This document shows, in pieces, positions 1,537 through 5,701 of a stretch of 64,000 nt of DNA (the first letter of the stretch is position 1; each line of letters starts with the position of its first letter). The stretch is from Podospora anserina (Eukaryota). The notes beneath the pieces are model-generated. The model worked only from the letters and a program-made list of their open reading frames with translations. It had not been told where the DNA came from and did not search any database. Position numbers and translations under genes: made by a program. The stretch is taken from NCBI GenBank assembly GCA_017654855.1, contig CM030337.1, forward strand, positions 4,154,001-4,218,000. Reading direction: 5' to 3'.

Positions 1537-3625
1537 ATGCCGTTGAAGCAACAGTCGCTATACGCCACCTTTGGCACTTCATCCACCGGAGGCCAGAATA
1601 ATGATAATAACCGAGTCGAGCTAACGGCCGGGGCAAGACTGCGAGACTGGACAGCAAGGTCAAACACGGACGAGGACGATGATGCCAGATCACAATATGG
1701 CTCCGAGATTAGCAAAGAGGACGCAGATGTCACCACGGCCTTGATATTCACCGAGGGCGGCCCCCTCGGCGAGCCAGAGCCAAAAAGGGGACGGTTTTGG
1801 TTTTCACCCCCTGGAGGCAAGGGGGAGGAAACGGATCTTGATGCCATCGCCACGCAACGAAGTGTTTTTGACGACCCTGACCTGGCGGGACAATATCAAC
1901 CACAACCAGACTGGTATGCTGTTTCTGCCCGCTTACATATCCTCGTTTTCGGGCTGGTCCTGACAGTAATCATAGGGAAAACATCCATCGCTTCGACCCG
2001 TCAGCAAGATGGACATGGCGCGAGGAGCGAGCACTGATCCGCAAAGTCGACTTCAAAATCATGCTCTGGACCTGCCTCATGTTCTGCGCCCTGGAGATGG
2101 ACAGAGCCAACATTCGACAGGCTGTCACGGACGACCTGCTGCCTGAGCTTGGACTGACCACCAACGACTACAACCTCGGCAATTCGCTCTTTGCCTTTTC
2201 GTTTCTGTGTGCCGAGGTTCCATCGCAGTTGATCAGCAAGTACCTGGGTTGTGATATCTGGATACCGCTGCAGATGGTGCTCTGGTCGCTGGTGGCGTCA
2301 AGTCAGTTTACGTTGAGCGGAAGGTTTGGGTATCTGGCGTCGAGGGTGTTGTTGGGGATGCTCCAGGGAGGGTTTATACCGACTGTGGTGCTTTACCTGT
2401 CGTATTTTTACAAGGCGAACGAGCTGACGATACGGATGGGGTTCTTTTGGACATCGATGGTGTTTGCGGATATTTTTGCGGCGCTGTCAGCTTTTGGGTT
2501 GTTGCATATGCGTGGTGTTGGGGGATATTCGGGGTGGAGGTGGCTCTTTTTGATCGAGGTGAGTGTTGAGTCATGTGGAATTCCCCTACAACTAATTACC
2601 CGTACTGACTCTCGGGTCCAGGGAATGGTGACACTTGTCTTTGGAATCCTGTCCTTTGGTCTCATGCCGGCTGGCCCGACGCAGACTGCTGGTTGGCTCA
2701 GGGGTGAAAAGGGGTGGTTTACACCGAGGTATGTTCTTCCAGTAGATAATGGTCTCGAGATAACCGCTAACAAAAAAAAAAAAAAAAGGGAGGAAGTTAT
2801 CCTCGTTAATCGTATTATCCGTGACGACCCTTCTAAGGGAGGCATGCACAACCGGGAACCAGTATCCCCAAGGCTCCTCCTGAAGAGTCTGCTTGATTTT
2901 GACTTGTGGCCGATATATCTGATTGGTCTCTTCAATCATGTACCCTATGCCACGCCAACCAGCTATCTGACGTTGTCGCTCAAAGGGATGGGGTTCTCGA
3001 CATTCCAAACGAATCTGCTGGTGATTCCGTCGCAGGTGCTCCATAGTAGGTCTAGAAGGACTTTGACGGTGATTGGAACATTGTGCTAACAGAGTTGACA
3101 GTCGTAAACATGATAATCCTGACCTATGTCAGTGAATTCACTGGTCAAATGTCACTGATTGCCATCATACCTCAGTTTTGGGCAATCCCCTTCCTGGTCT
3201 TTTTACGGTTCGTAGACACCACCACAGTGTCCAAATGGACGGTCTGGTTGGTCATGACCTTCTTCCTGGGATCACCATATTCGCACCCCATCCAGGTCGG
3301 ATGGATCTCTCGCAATTCCAACACAGTCCGCAGTCGTGCTGTGGGCAGTGCTGTGTACAACATGTGCGTCCAGGGCGGCAGTATTATCGGGGCTAATATC
3401 TACCGCGAAGACGATGCGCCACACTACACTCGCGGCAACACGGTACTGCTGTCGATACTGGCCTTCAATATCGTTCTCTATTTATCAACCAAGGCATACT
3501 ATGTATGGCGGAACCGAAGCCGAGAGGAGGTCTGGAATGCCATGTCAGAGAGTGAGCGGGAGAAGTACCTGGCAGAAAACTGGGATGCCGGAAACAAGCG
3601 GTTAGATTTCAGATTTGCATCTTAA
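1537..3625 (+). CDS. MFS transporter, allantoate/anion:cation symporter (Dal5-like) family; 5 exons
   Basis: ORFs 1537, 2061 and 3083 join through GT-AG introns at about 1914-1975, 2559-2621, 2729-2788 and 3046-3101. Family motifs: W(T)WREERALIRKVDFKI, DRANI, GWRWLFLIEG, IYREDDAPHYTRGN, GNKRLDFRF. Confidence 0.92.
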
Positions 3626-3946
3626 GCAGACACTGCCCATGGCTTTTTCATCAATCAACCAATTGAGGAACTGGAATGTGACAGAGATGCATGTGGGGGA
3701 CTCCCTGGAGTGTGTGTGAGCCTGGCCTGACGAGGCGGTGCCATGGCGGGGTATATTTACCGGACAACAAGAGGGGTGTGGCTCTATCACCTCGCTGTTC
3801 ATAAATACCTGTAAATTTCCCCACGTTTTTATTTGCCCCTTCTCTCTTTCTTTCTGTCATCAAACACACGCCCTGGGGAAACCCACCCATTAATCACTCC
3901 CACATCGCCGTCGGCCTCGCTCGAGAGGCCACCACATACTGCAAGA

Positions 3947-4021
3947 ATGGCAGCAGCAGCATCAGCAGCAGCTGCCAGTATCCGTCTCTCCGCCATTTAC
4001 TTCCAGCCCCAGTTCCAATGA
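3947..4021 (+). other. AUG-initiated upstream ORF (MAAAASAAAASIRLSAIYFQPQFQ*) overlapping the bZIP reading frame
   Basis: ATG at 3947 in strong context (agaATGg), 24 codons, TGA at 4019-4021. The bZIP ORF is in the +1 frame relative to it. Confidence 0.75.
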
Positions 4022-4697
4022 TCAAGGTCTCCTGCACTTTTTGGACCCGAGCCAAGACTTTGATCATCTGTTGTGGAACGGCTCTTTTGACACGACCTCG
4101 CAACAACTTGCTCTCGACTGTCCCCTTTTTGATATTCAATACCCACTTCCATTCCCTACCCTTCCAGTTCCCGACTTTGATATTGGAATACCCTCTTTCG
4201 GCCTGGGTGAATCAAGCGCTGCTCCCGTCACAACAACAGCGGCAACGGCAAACCTATCTCTGTTAACTCCGACGCCAACAATCATCACATCGTTCGAGTC
4301 TTGCCAGTCACCATCATCCTCTACCTCACCCACCTCCACAAGCACGCCTGTCTCTGCCTCGGGCAATTTGGTCCCCGGGTTGAAGCTCCCTTCCTCCATT
4401 TCTGTTACACTTACCGGCAAGCCGAAAGGAAAGTCAGGGCGGAAGCCAACCAAGAAACGTCCTCTGCCTGAAGAAGAGGATGATGAAGACGAAGAGGTGC
4501 TCGTGAAGAGGGCGAGGAACAATCTGGCTGCCAAGCGCTACAGGCAGAAAAAGGTTGACCGCATTGAGGAGTTGGAGGATGAGGTGAAGGAGGTGAAGAA
4601 GGAGAGGGATGACCTCCGCGTGGAATTGGCGAGGAGGGAGGCCGAGGTGAAGGCTCTAAGGGAGATGCTGGCAATGACAACGGGGAAGAAGGATTAG
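3972..4697 (+). CDS. idi-4: bZIP transcription factor, JlbA/IDI-4 (Gcn4/Jun-like) type; start codon uncertain (no in-frame AUG before the bZIP)
   Basis: C-terminal basic region and zipper KRARNNLAAKRYRQKKVDRIEELEDEVKEVKKERDDLRVEL. The frame is open from 3894 with only CTG (3939, 3972, 4032) or TTG (4041) as candidate starts. The symbol is from recalled similarity to Podospora IDI-4/Aspergillus JlbA and was not searched. Confidence 0.8.
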   Translation: MPVSVSPPFTSSPSSNDQGLLHFLDPSQDFDHLLWNGSFDTTSQQLALDCPLFDIQYPLPFPTLPVPDFDIGIPSFGLGESSAAPVTTTAATANLSLLTPTPTIITSFESCQSPSSSTSPTSTSTPVSASGNLVPGLKLPSSISVTLTGKPKGKSGRKPTKKRPLPEEEDDEDEEVLVKRARNNLAAKRYRQKKVDRIEELEDEVKEVKKERDDLRVELARREAEVKALREMLAMTTGKKD

Positions 4698-5701
4698 GTA
4701 GGATTGATAGCTAGTTGATAGAGAACAAAATGAAACCATACTTGTGATACATATCAGCATTCCGCACTGGTTTCAATGGCATTGTCATTTAGTTACACTG
4801 ATTGAATCGTGACCTCCATGATGCCGTCTTTTTGTCCTGATAAGAGTGATTGGTGGTGTGCTGGTGGTCCGAGTGTCTGTCTGACCAAAGATGCGAGGCC
4901 CCATGCTAAGTCAGCACACTCCCACCGTGAAAATAAACATGATTTCATTTTTGATCAGTCCTGTACTAGCCAATCAAATTGTTGGAATATTTAACGACGG
5001 TGGTCTTGGCAATGATTTTGACGGTGGAGCAGATCCATCTGCCGGGGAGCCTTTCTAGAAAATACCAAAGGCTACACCCGACGCCGTGGACAAAGATGAC
5101 GATTACAAATTGCGACGCTGAGTGGACGGGCGTATTGGGCACGGAGTCACTGCGCCGAGAGATACGAAGCCAAGGCAGAGACAAGTGCGACTAAAAGACA
5201 TGGAAGAGGCAGTGACAGCTTTGGAACGCGCGCACGAACATCCCTCCGCTTTTAAAAGAAGAATTGGGTCCTGCTGTGGTTGGATTTCTAAGCACGGAGC
5301 ATCCATACCTAGGGGCACAGCTCCAAGCACCCAACCGGTCCGGGCGGCAGCAGCAGGGTCTTTATGAGCAAATGAACGGGGAGAAAATGCAAGGGCGCGG
5401 GGGAGAACGGATTTATAATGGCCTGCTCTGTCCTCTTTGTCACTTGGCGGCCGCTAACTCCACGGCGTTTGCGGACAACAAGCGTACTCCATCGTACCCG
5501 TTATGCCGTTCAGACCGGAGTTTGCATTCAAAGGCGGTGGGAGTGGACCGTGTAGACGTGCAGATCGCTACCCAGACCATACCGTCCAGGCGGTTTTAAC
5601 GCTGCTTTAACGTGTTAAACCTTCTTTTGAGCAGCAAAGCATCTTACGAATCACTGGTCGGCGGTGACTGGGGCTGTTGACAAGGGGGGTGGTTGCTTCC
5701 G

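What the first reader, a model, noticed from the sequence alone, without database searches (positions are those of the whole stretch)
3894..4697. bZIP (IDI-4/JlbA-type) gene with no in-frame AUG, overlapped by a strong AUG uORF: candidate programmed +1 frameshift or CUG-initiation switch
Seen: the bZIP frame is open from 3894 (after TAA 3891) to 4697, but its only ATGs lie in the last ten codons, after the zipper. The only nearby ATG (3947, agaATGg, optimal context) opens a 24-codon ORF, MAAAASAAAASIRLSAIYFQPQFQ*, ending TTC-CAG-CCC-CAG-TTC-CAA-TGA. A +1 shift puts it into the bZIP frame, either at CCC-C (4007-4010, perfect tRNA-Pro re-pairing) or at the UGA stop as in antizyme. In-frame near-cognate starts are CTG 3939 (A at -3, upstream of the AUG), CTG 3972 (poor context, 241-codon product) and CTG 4032. 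Established: Gcn4/Cpc1/ATF4-class bZIPs are translationally controlled by uORFs. I recall Podospora IDI-4 being described as CUG-initiated but could not verify this. Inference: scanning ribosomes should mostly be captured by AUG 3947, so factor output may be set by recoding or by CUG/AUG competition. That would be a starvation-responsive translational switch.
Basis: partly seen in the sequence, partly recalled or inferred. Interest (0 to 1): 0.8.

Follow-up and report, generated by a model that had tools for sequence, protein, structure and literature searches.

The report
CUG-started idi-4 with overlapping AUG ORF
This is the cell-death bZIP gene idi-4, which most likely starts translation at a conserved non-AUG codon, while the first AUG, eight bases later in another frame, opens a short ORF with a conserved peptide that probably diverts ribosomes; a frameshift is unlikely.

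Summary
The bZIP frame is open from 3894 to 4697. Its only in-frame ATGs are 4665 and 4674. ATG 3947 opens a 24-codon ORF in another frame.

The frame-correcting explanations did not hold up. Transcript-like contigs from two studies are colinear with the genome across 3876/3886-4939, with no joint, indel or base difference.

The gene is the idi-4/zip-1 orthologue. Its CUG start has already been proposed in print.

Of 16 related metagenome loci, 14 keep their N-terminal region. These 14 and the window (15 sequences) share the following features:
- The start position is a non-AUG NTG: CTG in 8, GTG in 5, TTG in 2.
- C at -4 and A at -3 are invariant.
- An invariant CAAGAATGG places an out-of-frame ATG exactly 8 nt downstream.

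That ATG opens a 21-30-codon ORF with a conserved peptide core. Codon-position and synonymous-shuffle tests show peptide-level selection on this overlapping frame.

No shift site is conserved. The Pro codon is CCC or CCT, and the stop codon and its neighbours vary. A GC-rich leader hairpin (3913-3930) is also conserved.

Best reading: CUG/AUG start-site competition, with a conserved-peptide overlapping ORF acting as sink or regulator. The CUG start is known. I found no report of the conserved overlapping ORF or the hairpin.

The parts
3876..4939 (+). Approximate extent of the unspliced idi-4 mRNA. The ends are approximate because contigs cannot fix them.
   Evidence: Run X2 has one 1085-nt contig (depth 733) colinear with 3876-4939, with 0 differences and 0 gaps. 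Run X1 contigs (depth about 4400-4850) tile 3886-5100 colinearly. Upstream depth is 3.4 and the neighbouring gene has depth 42. No joints, indels or other letters appear in any of the 4 runs.
3891..3893 (+). In-frame TAA closing the bZIP frame upstream, inside the transcript
3913..3930 (+). Conserved GC-rich leader hairpin: GGCCUC, a 6-nt loop, then GAGGCC. It ends 8 nt before the CUG.
   Evidence: Both arms are present in 12 of 12 distinct sequences, and 72 of 72 cells pair. Five pairs are invariant and one is U-A in 9 and U-G in 3. Loop length (4-7 nt in the predicted folds) and sequence vary. Predicted energy is -9.9 to -12.8 kcal/mol. The spacer to the NTG is 8-11 nt. The hairpin appears in the minimum-energy fold of all 12.
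3935..3941 (+). Near-cognate start CUG 3939-3941 with its context, C at -4 and A at -3
   Evidence: The position is NTG in 15 of 15 sequences (CTG 8, GTG 5, TTG 2). C-4 and A-3 are invariant, while -2 and -1 vary. The database entry for the window's own protein starts here (P0002, LQEW...).
3939..4697 (+). IDI-4 coding sequence read from the CUG (252 codons plus TAG stop)
   Evidence: It is 100% identical to P0002 and 73% and 69% identical to proteins named 'b-ZIP transcription factor IDI-4, partial' of Triangularia setosa and T. verruculosa.
3947..4021 (+). Overlapping ORF from the first AUG of the mRNA, 24 codons plus TGA, in a different frame from the bZIP frame (a +1 shift from it enters the bZIP frame)
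   Evidence: The ATG is 8 nt after the NTG in 15 of 15 sequences, within an invariant CAAGAATGG. The ORF is 21-30 codons in all of them.
3977..4015 (+). Conserved peptide core of the overlapping ORF (codons 11-23, S-I-R-L-S-A-I-Y-F-Q-P-Q)
   Evidence: Arg13 is in 12 of 12 distinct sequences, encoded by CGA, CGT or CGC. Pro22 is in 11 of 12 (CCC 7, CCT 4). Gln23 is in 11 of 12. Position 11 is Ser or Cys using six different codons. Variability by codon position in this frame is .359/.304/.428.
4007..4010 (+).
   Evidence: the homologous Pro codon is CCT in 4 of 11 sequences, so re-pairing is not conserved.
3978..4026 (+). Candidate 49-nt frame-correcting intron (rejected for the dominant mRNA)
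   Evidence: One search lists it. One search shows high-depth contigs of two studies running through it uncut.
4488..4664 (+). Basic region and leucine zipper
   Evidence: bZIP_2 and bZIP_1 on residues 199-257 of the frame that begins at 3894.

Best explanation
The window holds the idi-4 (N. crassa zip-1) bZIP gene of a Podospora-like member of the Sordariales. Its mRNA is unspliced, and its short leader (about 55-63 nt) has no AUG.

Proposed mechanism:
1. Scanning 43S complexes pass a conserved small hairpin. They first meet CUG 3939 in a strong fungal start context (C at -4, A at -3). A minority initiates there and makes the 252-residue IDI-4.
2. Complexes that do not commit at the CUG reach AUG 3947 eight nucleotides later, also in a strong context. 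They translate a 24-codon overlapping ORF that ends inside the IDI-4 coding region.
3. These ribosomes are lost to IDI-4 synthesis, because no usable in-frame AUG lies downstream.
4. IDI-4 output is therefore set by how start selection is split between a weak codon and a strong codon so close together that one ribosome cannot occupy both.

The overlapping ORF is a conserved peptide under purifying selection. It therefore probably does more than act as a passive sink. It could be a nascent-peptide regulator of elongation or termination, act through mRNA stability, or be a small protein with its own role.

Shown here: the sequence anatomy, colinear transcript contigs, conservation of the NTG with its context, of the ATG spacing, of the peptide and of the hairpin, and the absence of a conserved shift site.

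Inferred: that both starts are used, the direction of regulation, and any action of the peptide.
For: (1) No splice and no assembly error. Contigs of runs X1 and X2, from two studies, cross 3886-4230 and 3876-4939 with 0 differences, 0 indels and 0 joints. Their depths are 733 and about 4800, against 3.4 just upstream, so they behave as RNA.

(2) Start codon. Of the 16 related loci, 14 retain the N-terminal region. In all 14 and the window, the position of CTG 3939 is CTG, GTG or TTG (8, 5, 2). Only the first base varies. C-4 and A-3 are invariant while -2 and -1 vary. The frame is closed by a stop upstream in all 15.

(3) L003 differs from P0014 only at residue 1 (259 of 260 identical, V against M). 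The 'MQEW' proteins from automatic callers can therefore be GTG starts.

(4) The NCBI-named models P0039 (MSQW...) and P0066 (MNQW...) align their first Met to this very position, and Trp4 is invariant in 15 of 15 proteins. This places the N-terminus here.

(5) The out-of-frame ATG is 8 nt downstream in 15 of 15, within an invariant TGCAAGAATGG. No ATG lies within 130 nt upstream of the NTG in any locus. In the five short contigs (79-195 nt of upstream sequence) there is none at all.

(6) Peptide-level selection on the overlapping frame:
- The overlap is the only segment in which main-frame codon position 2 is the most variable. The values for positions 1/2/3 are .371/.466/.430, against .53/.431/.575.383/.323/.592 and .243/.118/.429 elsewhere.
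- With the main-frame peptides held fixed and synonymous codons shuffled, overlapping-frame identity is .401 against a null of .206 (z 13.8; 0 of 2000 shuffles reach it). Six control tests give excesses of only .03-.08.
- Arg13 is invariant with three synonymous codons, which read D, V or A in the main frame.

(7) Literature:
- zip-1 has a 'poor CUG start codon', and its translation depends on eIF2-alpha phosphorylation rhythms (PMC10241597, passages).
- A. fumigatus jlbA/IDI-4 mRNA shows about 3-fold higher translational efficiency under ER stress (PMC3943501, table passage).
- A downstream AUG within about 10 nt of an upstream start increases leaky scanning (PMC3542737, section 8 passage).
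Against: - No direct evidence of translation was available: no ribosome profiling and no N-terminal peptide. The runs are labelled RNA only as a guess, and contigs drop rare isoforms.
- With the overlapping-ORF peptide held fixed, main-frame identity in the overlap (.286 against a null of .212, z 4.6) exceeds the null by no more than the controls do. The main frame therefore shows no selection of its own between Trp4 and the short ORF's stop. This fits a disordered N-terminus, but equally a frame that is not translated there.
- The invariant TG of the NTG sits inside an 11-nt invariant block, so part of its conservation could serve the AUG rather than a CUG start.
- The comparison set is 12 distinct sequences in about 7 lineages, all apparently Sordariales. 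One of them (L014-16) loses the peptide motif after Arg13.
- One relative known only as protein (P0046, VNDW...) cannot have the ATG at this place, because Asp codons end in T or C.
- The hairpin core shows no compensatory changes.
- The original 2004 paper could not be read.
Confidence: 0.7

Rival explanations
1. Programmed +1 ribosomal frameshift. Ribosomes start at AUG 3947, translate the conserved peptide as the true N-terminus of IDI-4, and shift +1 into the bZIP frame before or at UGA 4019, as in antizyme or Ty.
For: The geometry fits in every locus, since a +1 shift anywhere in the overlap enters the bZIP frame. The peptide made from the AUG is more conserved than the main frame in the overlap. 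The main frame there shows no selection beyond control level. CCC-C exists in the window. L001 and L004 end CTT-TGA-T, which from my recollection resembles the bacterial prfB shift site.
Against: - No conserved shift site. The Pro codon is CCC in 7 and CCT in 4 of 11. It is followed by the common CAG or CAA codon, which gives no obvious pause.
- The last sense codon is CAA, CTT, GCC, TGC, CGC, CTC or GCA. The stop is TGA in 3 and TAG in 9 of 12 distinct sequences. The stop lies 2-8 codons after QPQ.
- After QPQ the short-ORF frame loses its coding-like pattern (.487/.673/.52).
- This model leaves unexplained the invariant in-frame NTG with C-4/A-3, and the alignment of Met1 of P0039 and P0066 to that codon.
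Confidence: 0.05
2. A minor spliced isoform removes a frame-correcting intron (for example 3978-4026, 49 nt). IDI-4 is then made from AUG 3947.
For: Ten GT...AG combinations with length = 1 mod 3 give an open fusion. Contigs cannot exclude rare isoforms.
Against: High-depth contigs of two studies run uncut through the region, and no joint was reported in any of 4 runs. The donor GTATCC falls on short-ORF codons 11-12, which read TGC-GTT, AGC-GCT, TCT-GTC or TCC-ATC in other loci. The donor and the length class are therefore not conserved, while the short ORF varies from 21 to 30 codons. By my recollection of fungal intron signals, no good branch-point match is evident; I ran no test of this.
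Confidence: 0.02
3. IDI-4 starts at the CUG, but the overlapping ORF has no role as a peptide. Its apparent conservation reflects RNA-level constraints such as start-site context, structure or a protein-binding site, and the AUG is only a by-product of the Glu-Trp codons.
For: TGCAAGAATGG is conserved as nucleotides. Local hairpins can be drawn after the AUG in the window (3948-3977). The overall codon-position signal is modest (.381/.371/.435).
Against: - Glu could be GAG, yet it is GAA in 15 of 15.
- Synonymous variation occurs in the short-ORF frame at invariant Arg13, at Pro22 and at Ser/Cys11. These changes alter the main-frame residue.
- The core shows a coding-like pattern.359/.304/.428.
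- The shuffle test gives z 13.8, against 2.6-6.4 in the controls.
- The fold of 3876-4030 is unremarkable (z -0.92), and the downstream hairpins are not at homologous places.
Confidence: 0.1
4. Gcn4/Cpc1/ATF4-type control: delayed reinitiation after upstream ORFs sets IDI-4 synthesis.
For: IDI-4 is a bZIP factor, and relatives are translationally regulated through the eIF2-alpha kinase pathway.
Against: The leader has no upstream AUG. The only short ORF overlaps the main start instead of preceding it. No in-frame AUG exists for reinitiation before codon 243 of the 252-codon CDS.
Confidence: 0.02

Closest known systems
Podospora anserina IDI-4 / Neurospora crassa ZIP-1 (NCU08055) non-AUG start
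   Same: It is the same gene family, and very probably the same gene. The window's protein is filed starting LQEW at CTG 3939. The literature states that a CUG start is proposed for IDI-4 and conserved in N. crassa (PMC5487733, PMC10241597; passages read).
   Different: The passages I could read mention only the weak CUG. 'uORF' occurs 0 times in PMC10241597. The conserved-peptide overlapping ORF, the fixed 8-nt spacing, the CUG/GUG/UUG interchange and the leader hairpin are not mentioned there. Dementhon et al. 2004 was not available and may describe the out-of-frame AUG.
[quoted passage not shown]
   Same: Two start sites in different frames lie within about 10 nt. The downstream one captures ribosomes that would otherwise use the upstream one (PMC3542737, section 8 passage). 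The upstream near-cognate before a stronger AUG resembles the Sendai ACG/AUG arrangement, which I cite from recollection and did not check.
   Different: Those are viral mRNAs making two full-size proteins. Here a cellular transcription-factor mRNA pairs a near-cognate main start with a 24-codon conserved peptide ORF.
C/EBP alpha/beta bZIP mRNAs
   Same: They are bZIP factors whose isoform output is set by a short out-of-frame ORF started at an AUG in good context, next to the main starts, and is sensitive to eIF2-alpha phosphorylation (passage in PMC5487733).
   Different: C/EBP relies on reinitiation at downstream in-frame AUGs. idi-4 has none, and its short ORF overlaps the main coding region.
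Fungal arginine attenuator peptide (arg-2 / CPA1 uORF) and other conserved-peptide uORFs
   Same: A roughly 24-codon AUG-initiated ORF with a conserved internal peptide and a looser C-terminal tail on a fungal regulatory mRNA. The comparison is from my recollection. The family is cited only in the reference list seen.
   Different: The attenuator peptide lies wholly upstream of an AUG-initiated main ORF and stalls ribosomes in response to arginine. Here the ORF overlaps a CUG-initiated main ORF. No stalling, ligand or sequence similarity has been tested.
Antizyme-type programmed +1 frameshifting
   Same: A short AUG-initiated ORF1 is followed by a long ORF2 without its own AUG in the +1 frame. 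The window even reads ...UGA-U at the ORF1 stop.
   Different: The defining conserved shift site is absent. The stop identity and position vary. An in-frame conserved near-cognate start exists instead.

Membership tests
IDI-4 / JlbA / ZIP-1 bZIP transcription factors | C-terminal basic region and leucine zipper | tested here: met
   bZIP_2 at 34.9 bits (cut-off 22.3) and bZIP_1 at 32.6 bits (cut-off 27.6), on residues 199-257.
IDI-4 / JlbA / ZIP-1 bZIP transcription factors | Full-length similarity to proteins named IDI-4 | tested here: met
   73% identity over 93% of the query to T. setosa IDI-4 (E 1.5e-94), and 69% to T. verruculosa IDI-4. 84 proteins have E <= 0.001. Orthology to A. nidulans JlbA itself was not tested.
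Main ORFs initiated at a near-cognate (non-AUG) codon | No usable in-frame AUG, with an in-frame stop upstream inside the mRNA | tested here: met
   TAA is at 3891, the first in-frame ATG is 4665, and the transcript begins at about 3876-3886.
Main ORFs initiated at a near-cognate (non-AUG) codon | Near-cognate codon and strong context conserved across relatives | tested here: met
   NTG in 15 of 15 (CTG 8, GTG 5, TTG 2), with C-4 and A-3 invariant.
Main ORFs initiated at a near-cognate (non-AUG) codon | Protein N-terminus or initiating ribosomes mapped to that codon | not testable with these tools
   No ribosome profiling or proteomics was available. The literature says 'proposed'.
Conserved-peptide regulatory short ORFs (uORF/oORF) | AUG-initiated short ORF conserved in position and frame | tested here: met
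   ATG at +8 in 15 of 15, with ORFs of 21-30 codons.
Conserved-peptide regulatory short ORFs (uORF/oORF) | Selection on the amino-acid sequence rather than only on nucleotides | tested here: met
   (main-frame position 2 most variable only in the overlap). (identity .401 against a null of .206, 0 of 2000 shuffles reach it; control excesses .03-.08). (core .359/.304/.428; Arg13 in 12 of 12 with 3 codons).
Conserved-peptide regulatory short ORFs (uORF/oORF) | Peptide-dependent ribosome stalling or effect on main-ORF output | not testable with these tools
   This needs toeprinting or reporter assays.
Programmed +1 frameshift genes (antizyme, Ty, prfB type) | ORF2 in the +1 frame of a short AUG-initiated ORF1 and lacking its own AUG | tested here: met
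Programmed +1 frameshift genes (antizyme, Ty, prfB type) | Conserved shift heptamer or stop-codon site at a fixed place | tested here: not met
   The Pro codon is CCC 7 / CCT 4. There are seven different last sense codons. The stop is TGA in 3 and TAG in 9 of 12, and lies 2-8 codons after QPQ.
Programmed +1 frameshift genes (antizyme, Ty, prfB type) | Conserved 3' stimulatory structure | tested here: inconclusive
   One search gave no consensus structure, but its alignment misplaced even the leader hairpin. The region after the stop is poorly alignable.
Gcn4/Cpc1/ATF4-type reinitiation control | One or more uORFs wholly upstream, with reinitiation at a main-ORF AUG | tested here: not met
   the leader is AUG-free, the short ORF overlaps the main start, and there is no main-frame AUG.

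The most novel reading that the evidence does not exclude
The conserved 24-residue peptide is a cis-acting nascent-chain sensor comparable to the fungal arginine attenuator peptide. By pausing ribosomes in the overlapping ORF in response to a metabolite or stress signal, it would change the share of initiation at the CUG only 8 nt upstream, or expose the mRNA to decay. Together with the conserved hairpin at the ribosome's exit side, this would form a dedicated translational switch for a transcription factor that triggers autophagy and cell death. It would be conserved across the Sordariales with interchangeable CUG, GUG and UUG starts.
Probability: 0.25. Interest if true: 0.8.

Novelty: new variant of a known kind. 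Interest (0 to 1): 0.55.

Why it matters
IDI-4 drives autophagy and cell death in heterokaryon incompatibility. This is according to the title of Dementhon et al. 2004 and the passages in PMC10241597. [quoted passage not shown]

The comparison made here gives a concrete and compact module: a hairpin, a near-cognate start in strong context, an out-of-frame AUG exactly 8 nt later, and a conserved peptide ORF. Single synonymous mutations can test it.

It would be a clear cellular example of output set by competition between a weak and a strong start codon too close for two ribosomes. It would also be a new candidate regulatory peptide in fungi.

For annotation, it explains why these genes are filed as 'partial', or receive invented upstream exons in many genomes (P0007, P0009, P0011, P0019, P0053).

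Tried and rejected
- **RNA holders.** No listed run is on record as RNA. I treated X1 and X2 as RNA because of their depth contrasts. X3 covered only the neighbouring gene, which says nothing about idi-4.
- **Intron models.** Ten GT...AG candidates were listed. None is seen as a joint.
- **Consensus folding.** RNAalifold on a MAFFT alignment of 12 sequences gave 0 pairs. The 3' arm of the hairpin was misaligned, so the result is uninformative.
- **Single-strand fold.** The fold of 3876-4030 has z -0.92, with 36 of 200 shuffles folding as well. There is no unusual global structure.
- **Long-range pairing.** Pairing between the start region (CUG CAAGAA) and the UUC/UAC-CAG codons of the peptide appeared in some folds. 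It used non-homologous partners in different loci, so I dropped it.
- **Downstream hairpin.** The hairpin at 3948-3977 depends on the window's own CAG/GCA run and is not conserved.
- **Rfam.** The only hit was a chance match (Vax2os1_2, 11.4 bits against a gathering score of 55).
- **Ribosome queuing.** I considered queuing from a pause at QPQ. The NTG-to-Pro distance, derived from the peptides, is 68 nt in 7, 71 nt in 3 and 59 nt in 2 of the 12 sequences with the motif. That spacing would place queued ribosomes at the AUG or upstream of the hairpin rather than at the NTG, so I make no claim.
- **Own genome.** None is held, so paralogues could not be sought.
- **Earlier notes of this scan.** None were found.
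- **Dementhon et al. 2004.** Not held.
- **Neighbouring ORF 3056-3625.** Only sub-threshold Pfam hits.
- **Searches behind the claim that the overlapping ORF is not in print.** (11 papers; 5 papers; 2 papers) and 44, plus passages read. Supplements (for example Table S7 and Figure S4 of PMC10241597, which may show footprints on the zip-1 leader) could not be seen.
Full report
**Observation.**
- TAA 3891-3893 closes the bZIP frame upstream. The frame is then open from 3894 to 4697.
- Its only in-frame ATGs are 4665 and 4674, in the last ten codons.
- ATG 3947 (A at -3, G at +4) lies in another frame. It opens a 24-codon ORF (MAAAASAAAASIRLSAIYFQPQFQ) that stops at TGA 4019-4021.
- A +1 shift from that ORF enters the bZIP frame.
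- In-frame CTGs are at 3939, 3972 and 4032.
- Pfam finds bZIP_2 and bZIP_1 on residues 199-257 of the frame.

**Transcript.** One run search listed 23 holders. None is on record as RNA.
- Eighteen holders have contig totals of 4-27 Mb and hold 81-92% of the sampled words. Five have 31-36 Mb and hold all of them.
- I laid X1, X2 and X3 (guessed RNA, three studies) and X19 (genome-sized) on 3500-5100.
- X2 has a single 1085-nt contig, at depth 733, colinear with 3876-4939.
- X1 contigs at depth about 4400-4850 tile 3886-4007, 3978-4230 and 4201-4593, and one at depth 414 covers 4564-5100.
- Depth just upstream (3683-3833) is 3.4, and the neighbouring gene has depth 42. These contrasts are those of a transcriptome.
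- No run showed another letter, an indel or a joint.
- The dominant mRNA is therefore unspliced across the region, so the candidate introns, including 3978-4026, are not used.
- The frame problem is not a 1-nt assembly error.
- The mRNA begins near 3876-3886, so AUG 3947 is its first AUG and TAA 3891 lies inside it.
- Limits: contigs cannot fix ends and they drop rare isoforms, and X19 may be the window's own source.

**Identity.** The closest named proteins are 'b-ZIP transcription factor IDI-4, partial' of Triangularia setosa (73%) and T. verruculosa (69%). The database entry identical to the window's protein (P0002, 252 aa) starts LQEW, that is at CTG 3939. Two papers state that a CUG start is proposed for P. 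anserina IDI-4, that the CUG is conserved in the N. crassa homologue, and that N. crassa zip-1 has a 'poor CUG start codon'. These are PMC5487733 (discussion passage) and PMC10241597 (passages). The original paper, Dementhon, Saupe and Clave 2004, is not held.

**Comparative anatomy.** A scan of metagenome contigs with an alignment of 15 relatives returned 16 loci. Two (L008, L013) are cut before the N-terminus, which leaves 14. L003 and L005 are identical in this region, as are L014, L015 and L016. That gives 12 distinct sequences with the window, in about seven lineages. By best protein match these include Cladorrhinum-like, Chaetomium-like and Staphylotrichum-like groups and three loci (L011, L012, L014) with no close named relative.

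In all 14 loci and the window:
- The bZIP frame is closed upstream and has no ATG start.
- The codon homologous to CTG 3939 is CTG (8), GTG (5) or TTG (2). Only its first base varies.
- C at -4 and A at -3 are invariant, while -2 and -1 vary. As I recall the fungal start consensus, this is a strong context.
- The next nine bases, CAAGAATGG, are invariant. An ATG in the other frame therefore always lies exactly 8 nt after the NTG, with A at -3 and G at +4.
- That ATG opens an ORF of 21-30 codons.
- No ATG occurs within 130 nt upstream of the NTG.

L003 differs from P0014 ('MQEW...') only at residue 1. The Met in such automatically called proteins can therefore stand for GTG. The NCBI-named models P0039 (MSQW) and P0066 (MNQW) place their first Met at this same aligned position, and Trp4 is invariant in 15 of 15 aligned proteins. 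That supports this codon as the N-terminus. I could not see their DNA.

**Is the overlapping ORF selected as a peptide?** The peptides align as M, an Ala/Thr/Ser-rich stretch, [S/C]-[V/I]-R-[L/F/V], a few residues, then [F/Y]-[F/Y]-Q-P-Q and a variable tail of 2-8 residues. L014-16 diverge after the Arg.
- Arg13 is invariant in 12 of 12 but is written CGA, CGT or CGC. These changes turn the main-frame residue into D, V or A.
- Pro22 is CCC (7) or CCT (4).
- Position 11 is Ser or Cys, using six codons from both Ser codon families.
- Mean pairwise nucleotide difference by main-frame codon position (1/2/3) is .371/.466/.430 in the overlap. Elsewhere it is .53/.431/.575.383/.323/.592 and .243/.118/.429. 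Only in the overlap is main-frame position 2, which is the third position of the short ORF, the most variable.
- In the peptide core the short-ORF frame shows the coding order .359/.304/.428. After QPQ it does not (.487/.673/.52).
- Synonymous-codon shuffles used between-lineage pairs only. With the main-frame peptides held fixed, short-ORF identity is .401 against .206 expected (z 13.8; 0 of 2000 shuffles reach it). The same test on alternative frames of three control segments gives excesses of only .03-.08. In the overlap the alternative frame is even more conserved than the main frame (.401 against .374).
- In the reverse test, with the short ORF held fixed, main-frame identity is .286 against .212 (z 4.6). 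That is a control-sized excess. The main frame between Trp4 and the short ORF's stop therefore shows no detectable selection of its own.

**Frameshift test.** A programmed +1 shift needs a conserved site, and none was found.
- The CCC-C of the window is CCT-C in 4 of 11 sequences, and it is followed by a common Gln codon.
- The last sense codon before the stop is CAA, CTT, GCC, TGC, CGC, CTC or GCA.
- The stop is TGA in 3 and TAG in 9 of the 12 distinct sequences.
- The stop's distance from QPQ varies.
- A frameshift would also leave unexplained the in-frame NTG with its conserved context.

The lack of main-frame selection in the overlap keeps this rival alive at a low level. The N-terminal half of the protein is poorly conserved throughout (identity .355 for residues 28-150), so that result is not diagnostic.

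**Hairpin.** Eight to eleven nucleotides before the NTG, all 12 distinct sequences carry GGCCUC, a variable loop, then G(A/G)GGCC (window 3913-3930).
- All 72 cells pair. Five pairs are invariant, and one is U-A in 9 and U-G in 3.
- Loop length and sequence differ. The stem is lengthened by different extra pairs in some loci. It is part of the minimum-energy fold in all 12, at -9.9 to -12.8 kcal/mol.
- The G-U variants fit an RNA stem on the sense strand better than a DNA palindrome. There is no compensatory change in the core, so the structure is plausible rather than proven.
- Its position would put it at the mRNA exit side of a 40S subunit whose P site is on the NTG. Whether it acts there, for example by limiting backward movement, or binds a protein, is speculation.

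**Mechanism.** The best-supported reading is start-site competition. Scanning subunits meet a weak codon in strong context. Eight nucleotides later they meet a strong AUG in another frame. The two sites are too close for two ribosomes.

A review passage states that a downstream AUG within about 10 nt increases bypass of the upstream start (PMC3542737, section 8). Ribosomes that take the AUG make the short peptide, terminate inside the IDI-4 coding region and cannot make IDI-4. This would keep a factor tied to cell death scarce and make its synthesis sensitive to the stringency of start selection.

Translational control of relatives is documented. ZIP-1 depends on rhythmic eIF2-alpha phosphorylation. 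A. fumigatus jlbA/IDI-4 mRNA shows about 3-fold higher translational efficiency under DTT and tunicamycin (PMC3943501, table passage).

Conservation of the peptide points to an added layer: stalling by the nascent chain, coupling to mRNA decay after early termination, or a function of the micropeptide itself. None of this could be tested here.

**Novelty and limits.** The CUG start is known. In the searchable library I found no mention of the conserved overlapping ORF, the fixed 8-nt spacing, the CUG/GUG/UUG interchange or the hairpin (searches; passages). The 2004 paper and all supplements were out of reach.

The comparison rests on 12 distinct sequences, apparently all Sordariales. Some relatives seen only as proteins differ. 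P0046 (VNDW) cannot carry the ATG at this place. P0047 (MEW...), P0060 (MREW...) and P0032 (MYKW...) appear to have an in-frame Met nearby. No direct translation data were available.

Noticed in passing
window 3913-3930; L001-L016 at the homologous place: A conserved GGCCUC-loop-G(A/G)GGCC hairpin lies in the 5' leader, 8-11 nt before the near-cognate start. Both arms are invariant except for one U-A/U-G pair, and the loop varies in length and sequence.
   Followed up: partly
window 3948-3977: The GCA/CAG repeat right after AUG 3947 folds into a local hairpin (UGGCAGC...GCUGCCA) in the window. The equivalent stretch in other loci has a different sequence and no homologous stem.
   Followed up: partly
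window 3056-3625 (+): This is the last exon-like ORF of the upstream neighbour. It is hydrophobic and looks like a transporter by eye. It is expressed at moderate depth in the same runs (depth 35-42). It has only sub-threshold Pfam hits.
   Followed up: partly
proteins P0007, P0009, P0011, P0019, P0053: Gene models of several named species extend the N-terminus far upstream of the conserved LQEW through what look like invented exons. Others are filed as 'partial'. The missing AUG appears to mislead annotation pipelines across the family.
   Followed up: partly
protein P0005: This 376-residue metagenome protein contains the C-terminal two thirds of the IDI-4 homologue twice in tandem on a 1261-nt contig. 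It is probably an assembly artefact or a tandem duplication.
   Followed up: no
window 3752-3763 and 3801-3808: TATA-like motifs (TATATTTA and CATAAATA) lie about 115 nt and 70 nt upstream of the apparent transcript start.
   Followed up: no
proteins P0035 and P0039: Chaetomidium leptoderma has two family members. One is filed as partial (no Met) and one starts MSQW. A paralogue or lineage with an ordinary AUG start may therefore coexist with the non-AUG form.
   Followed up: no
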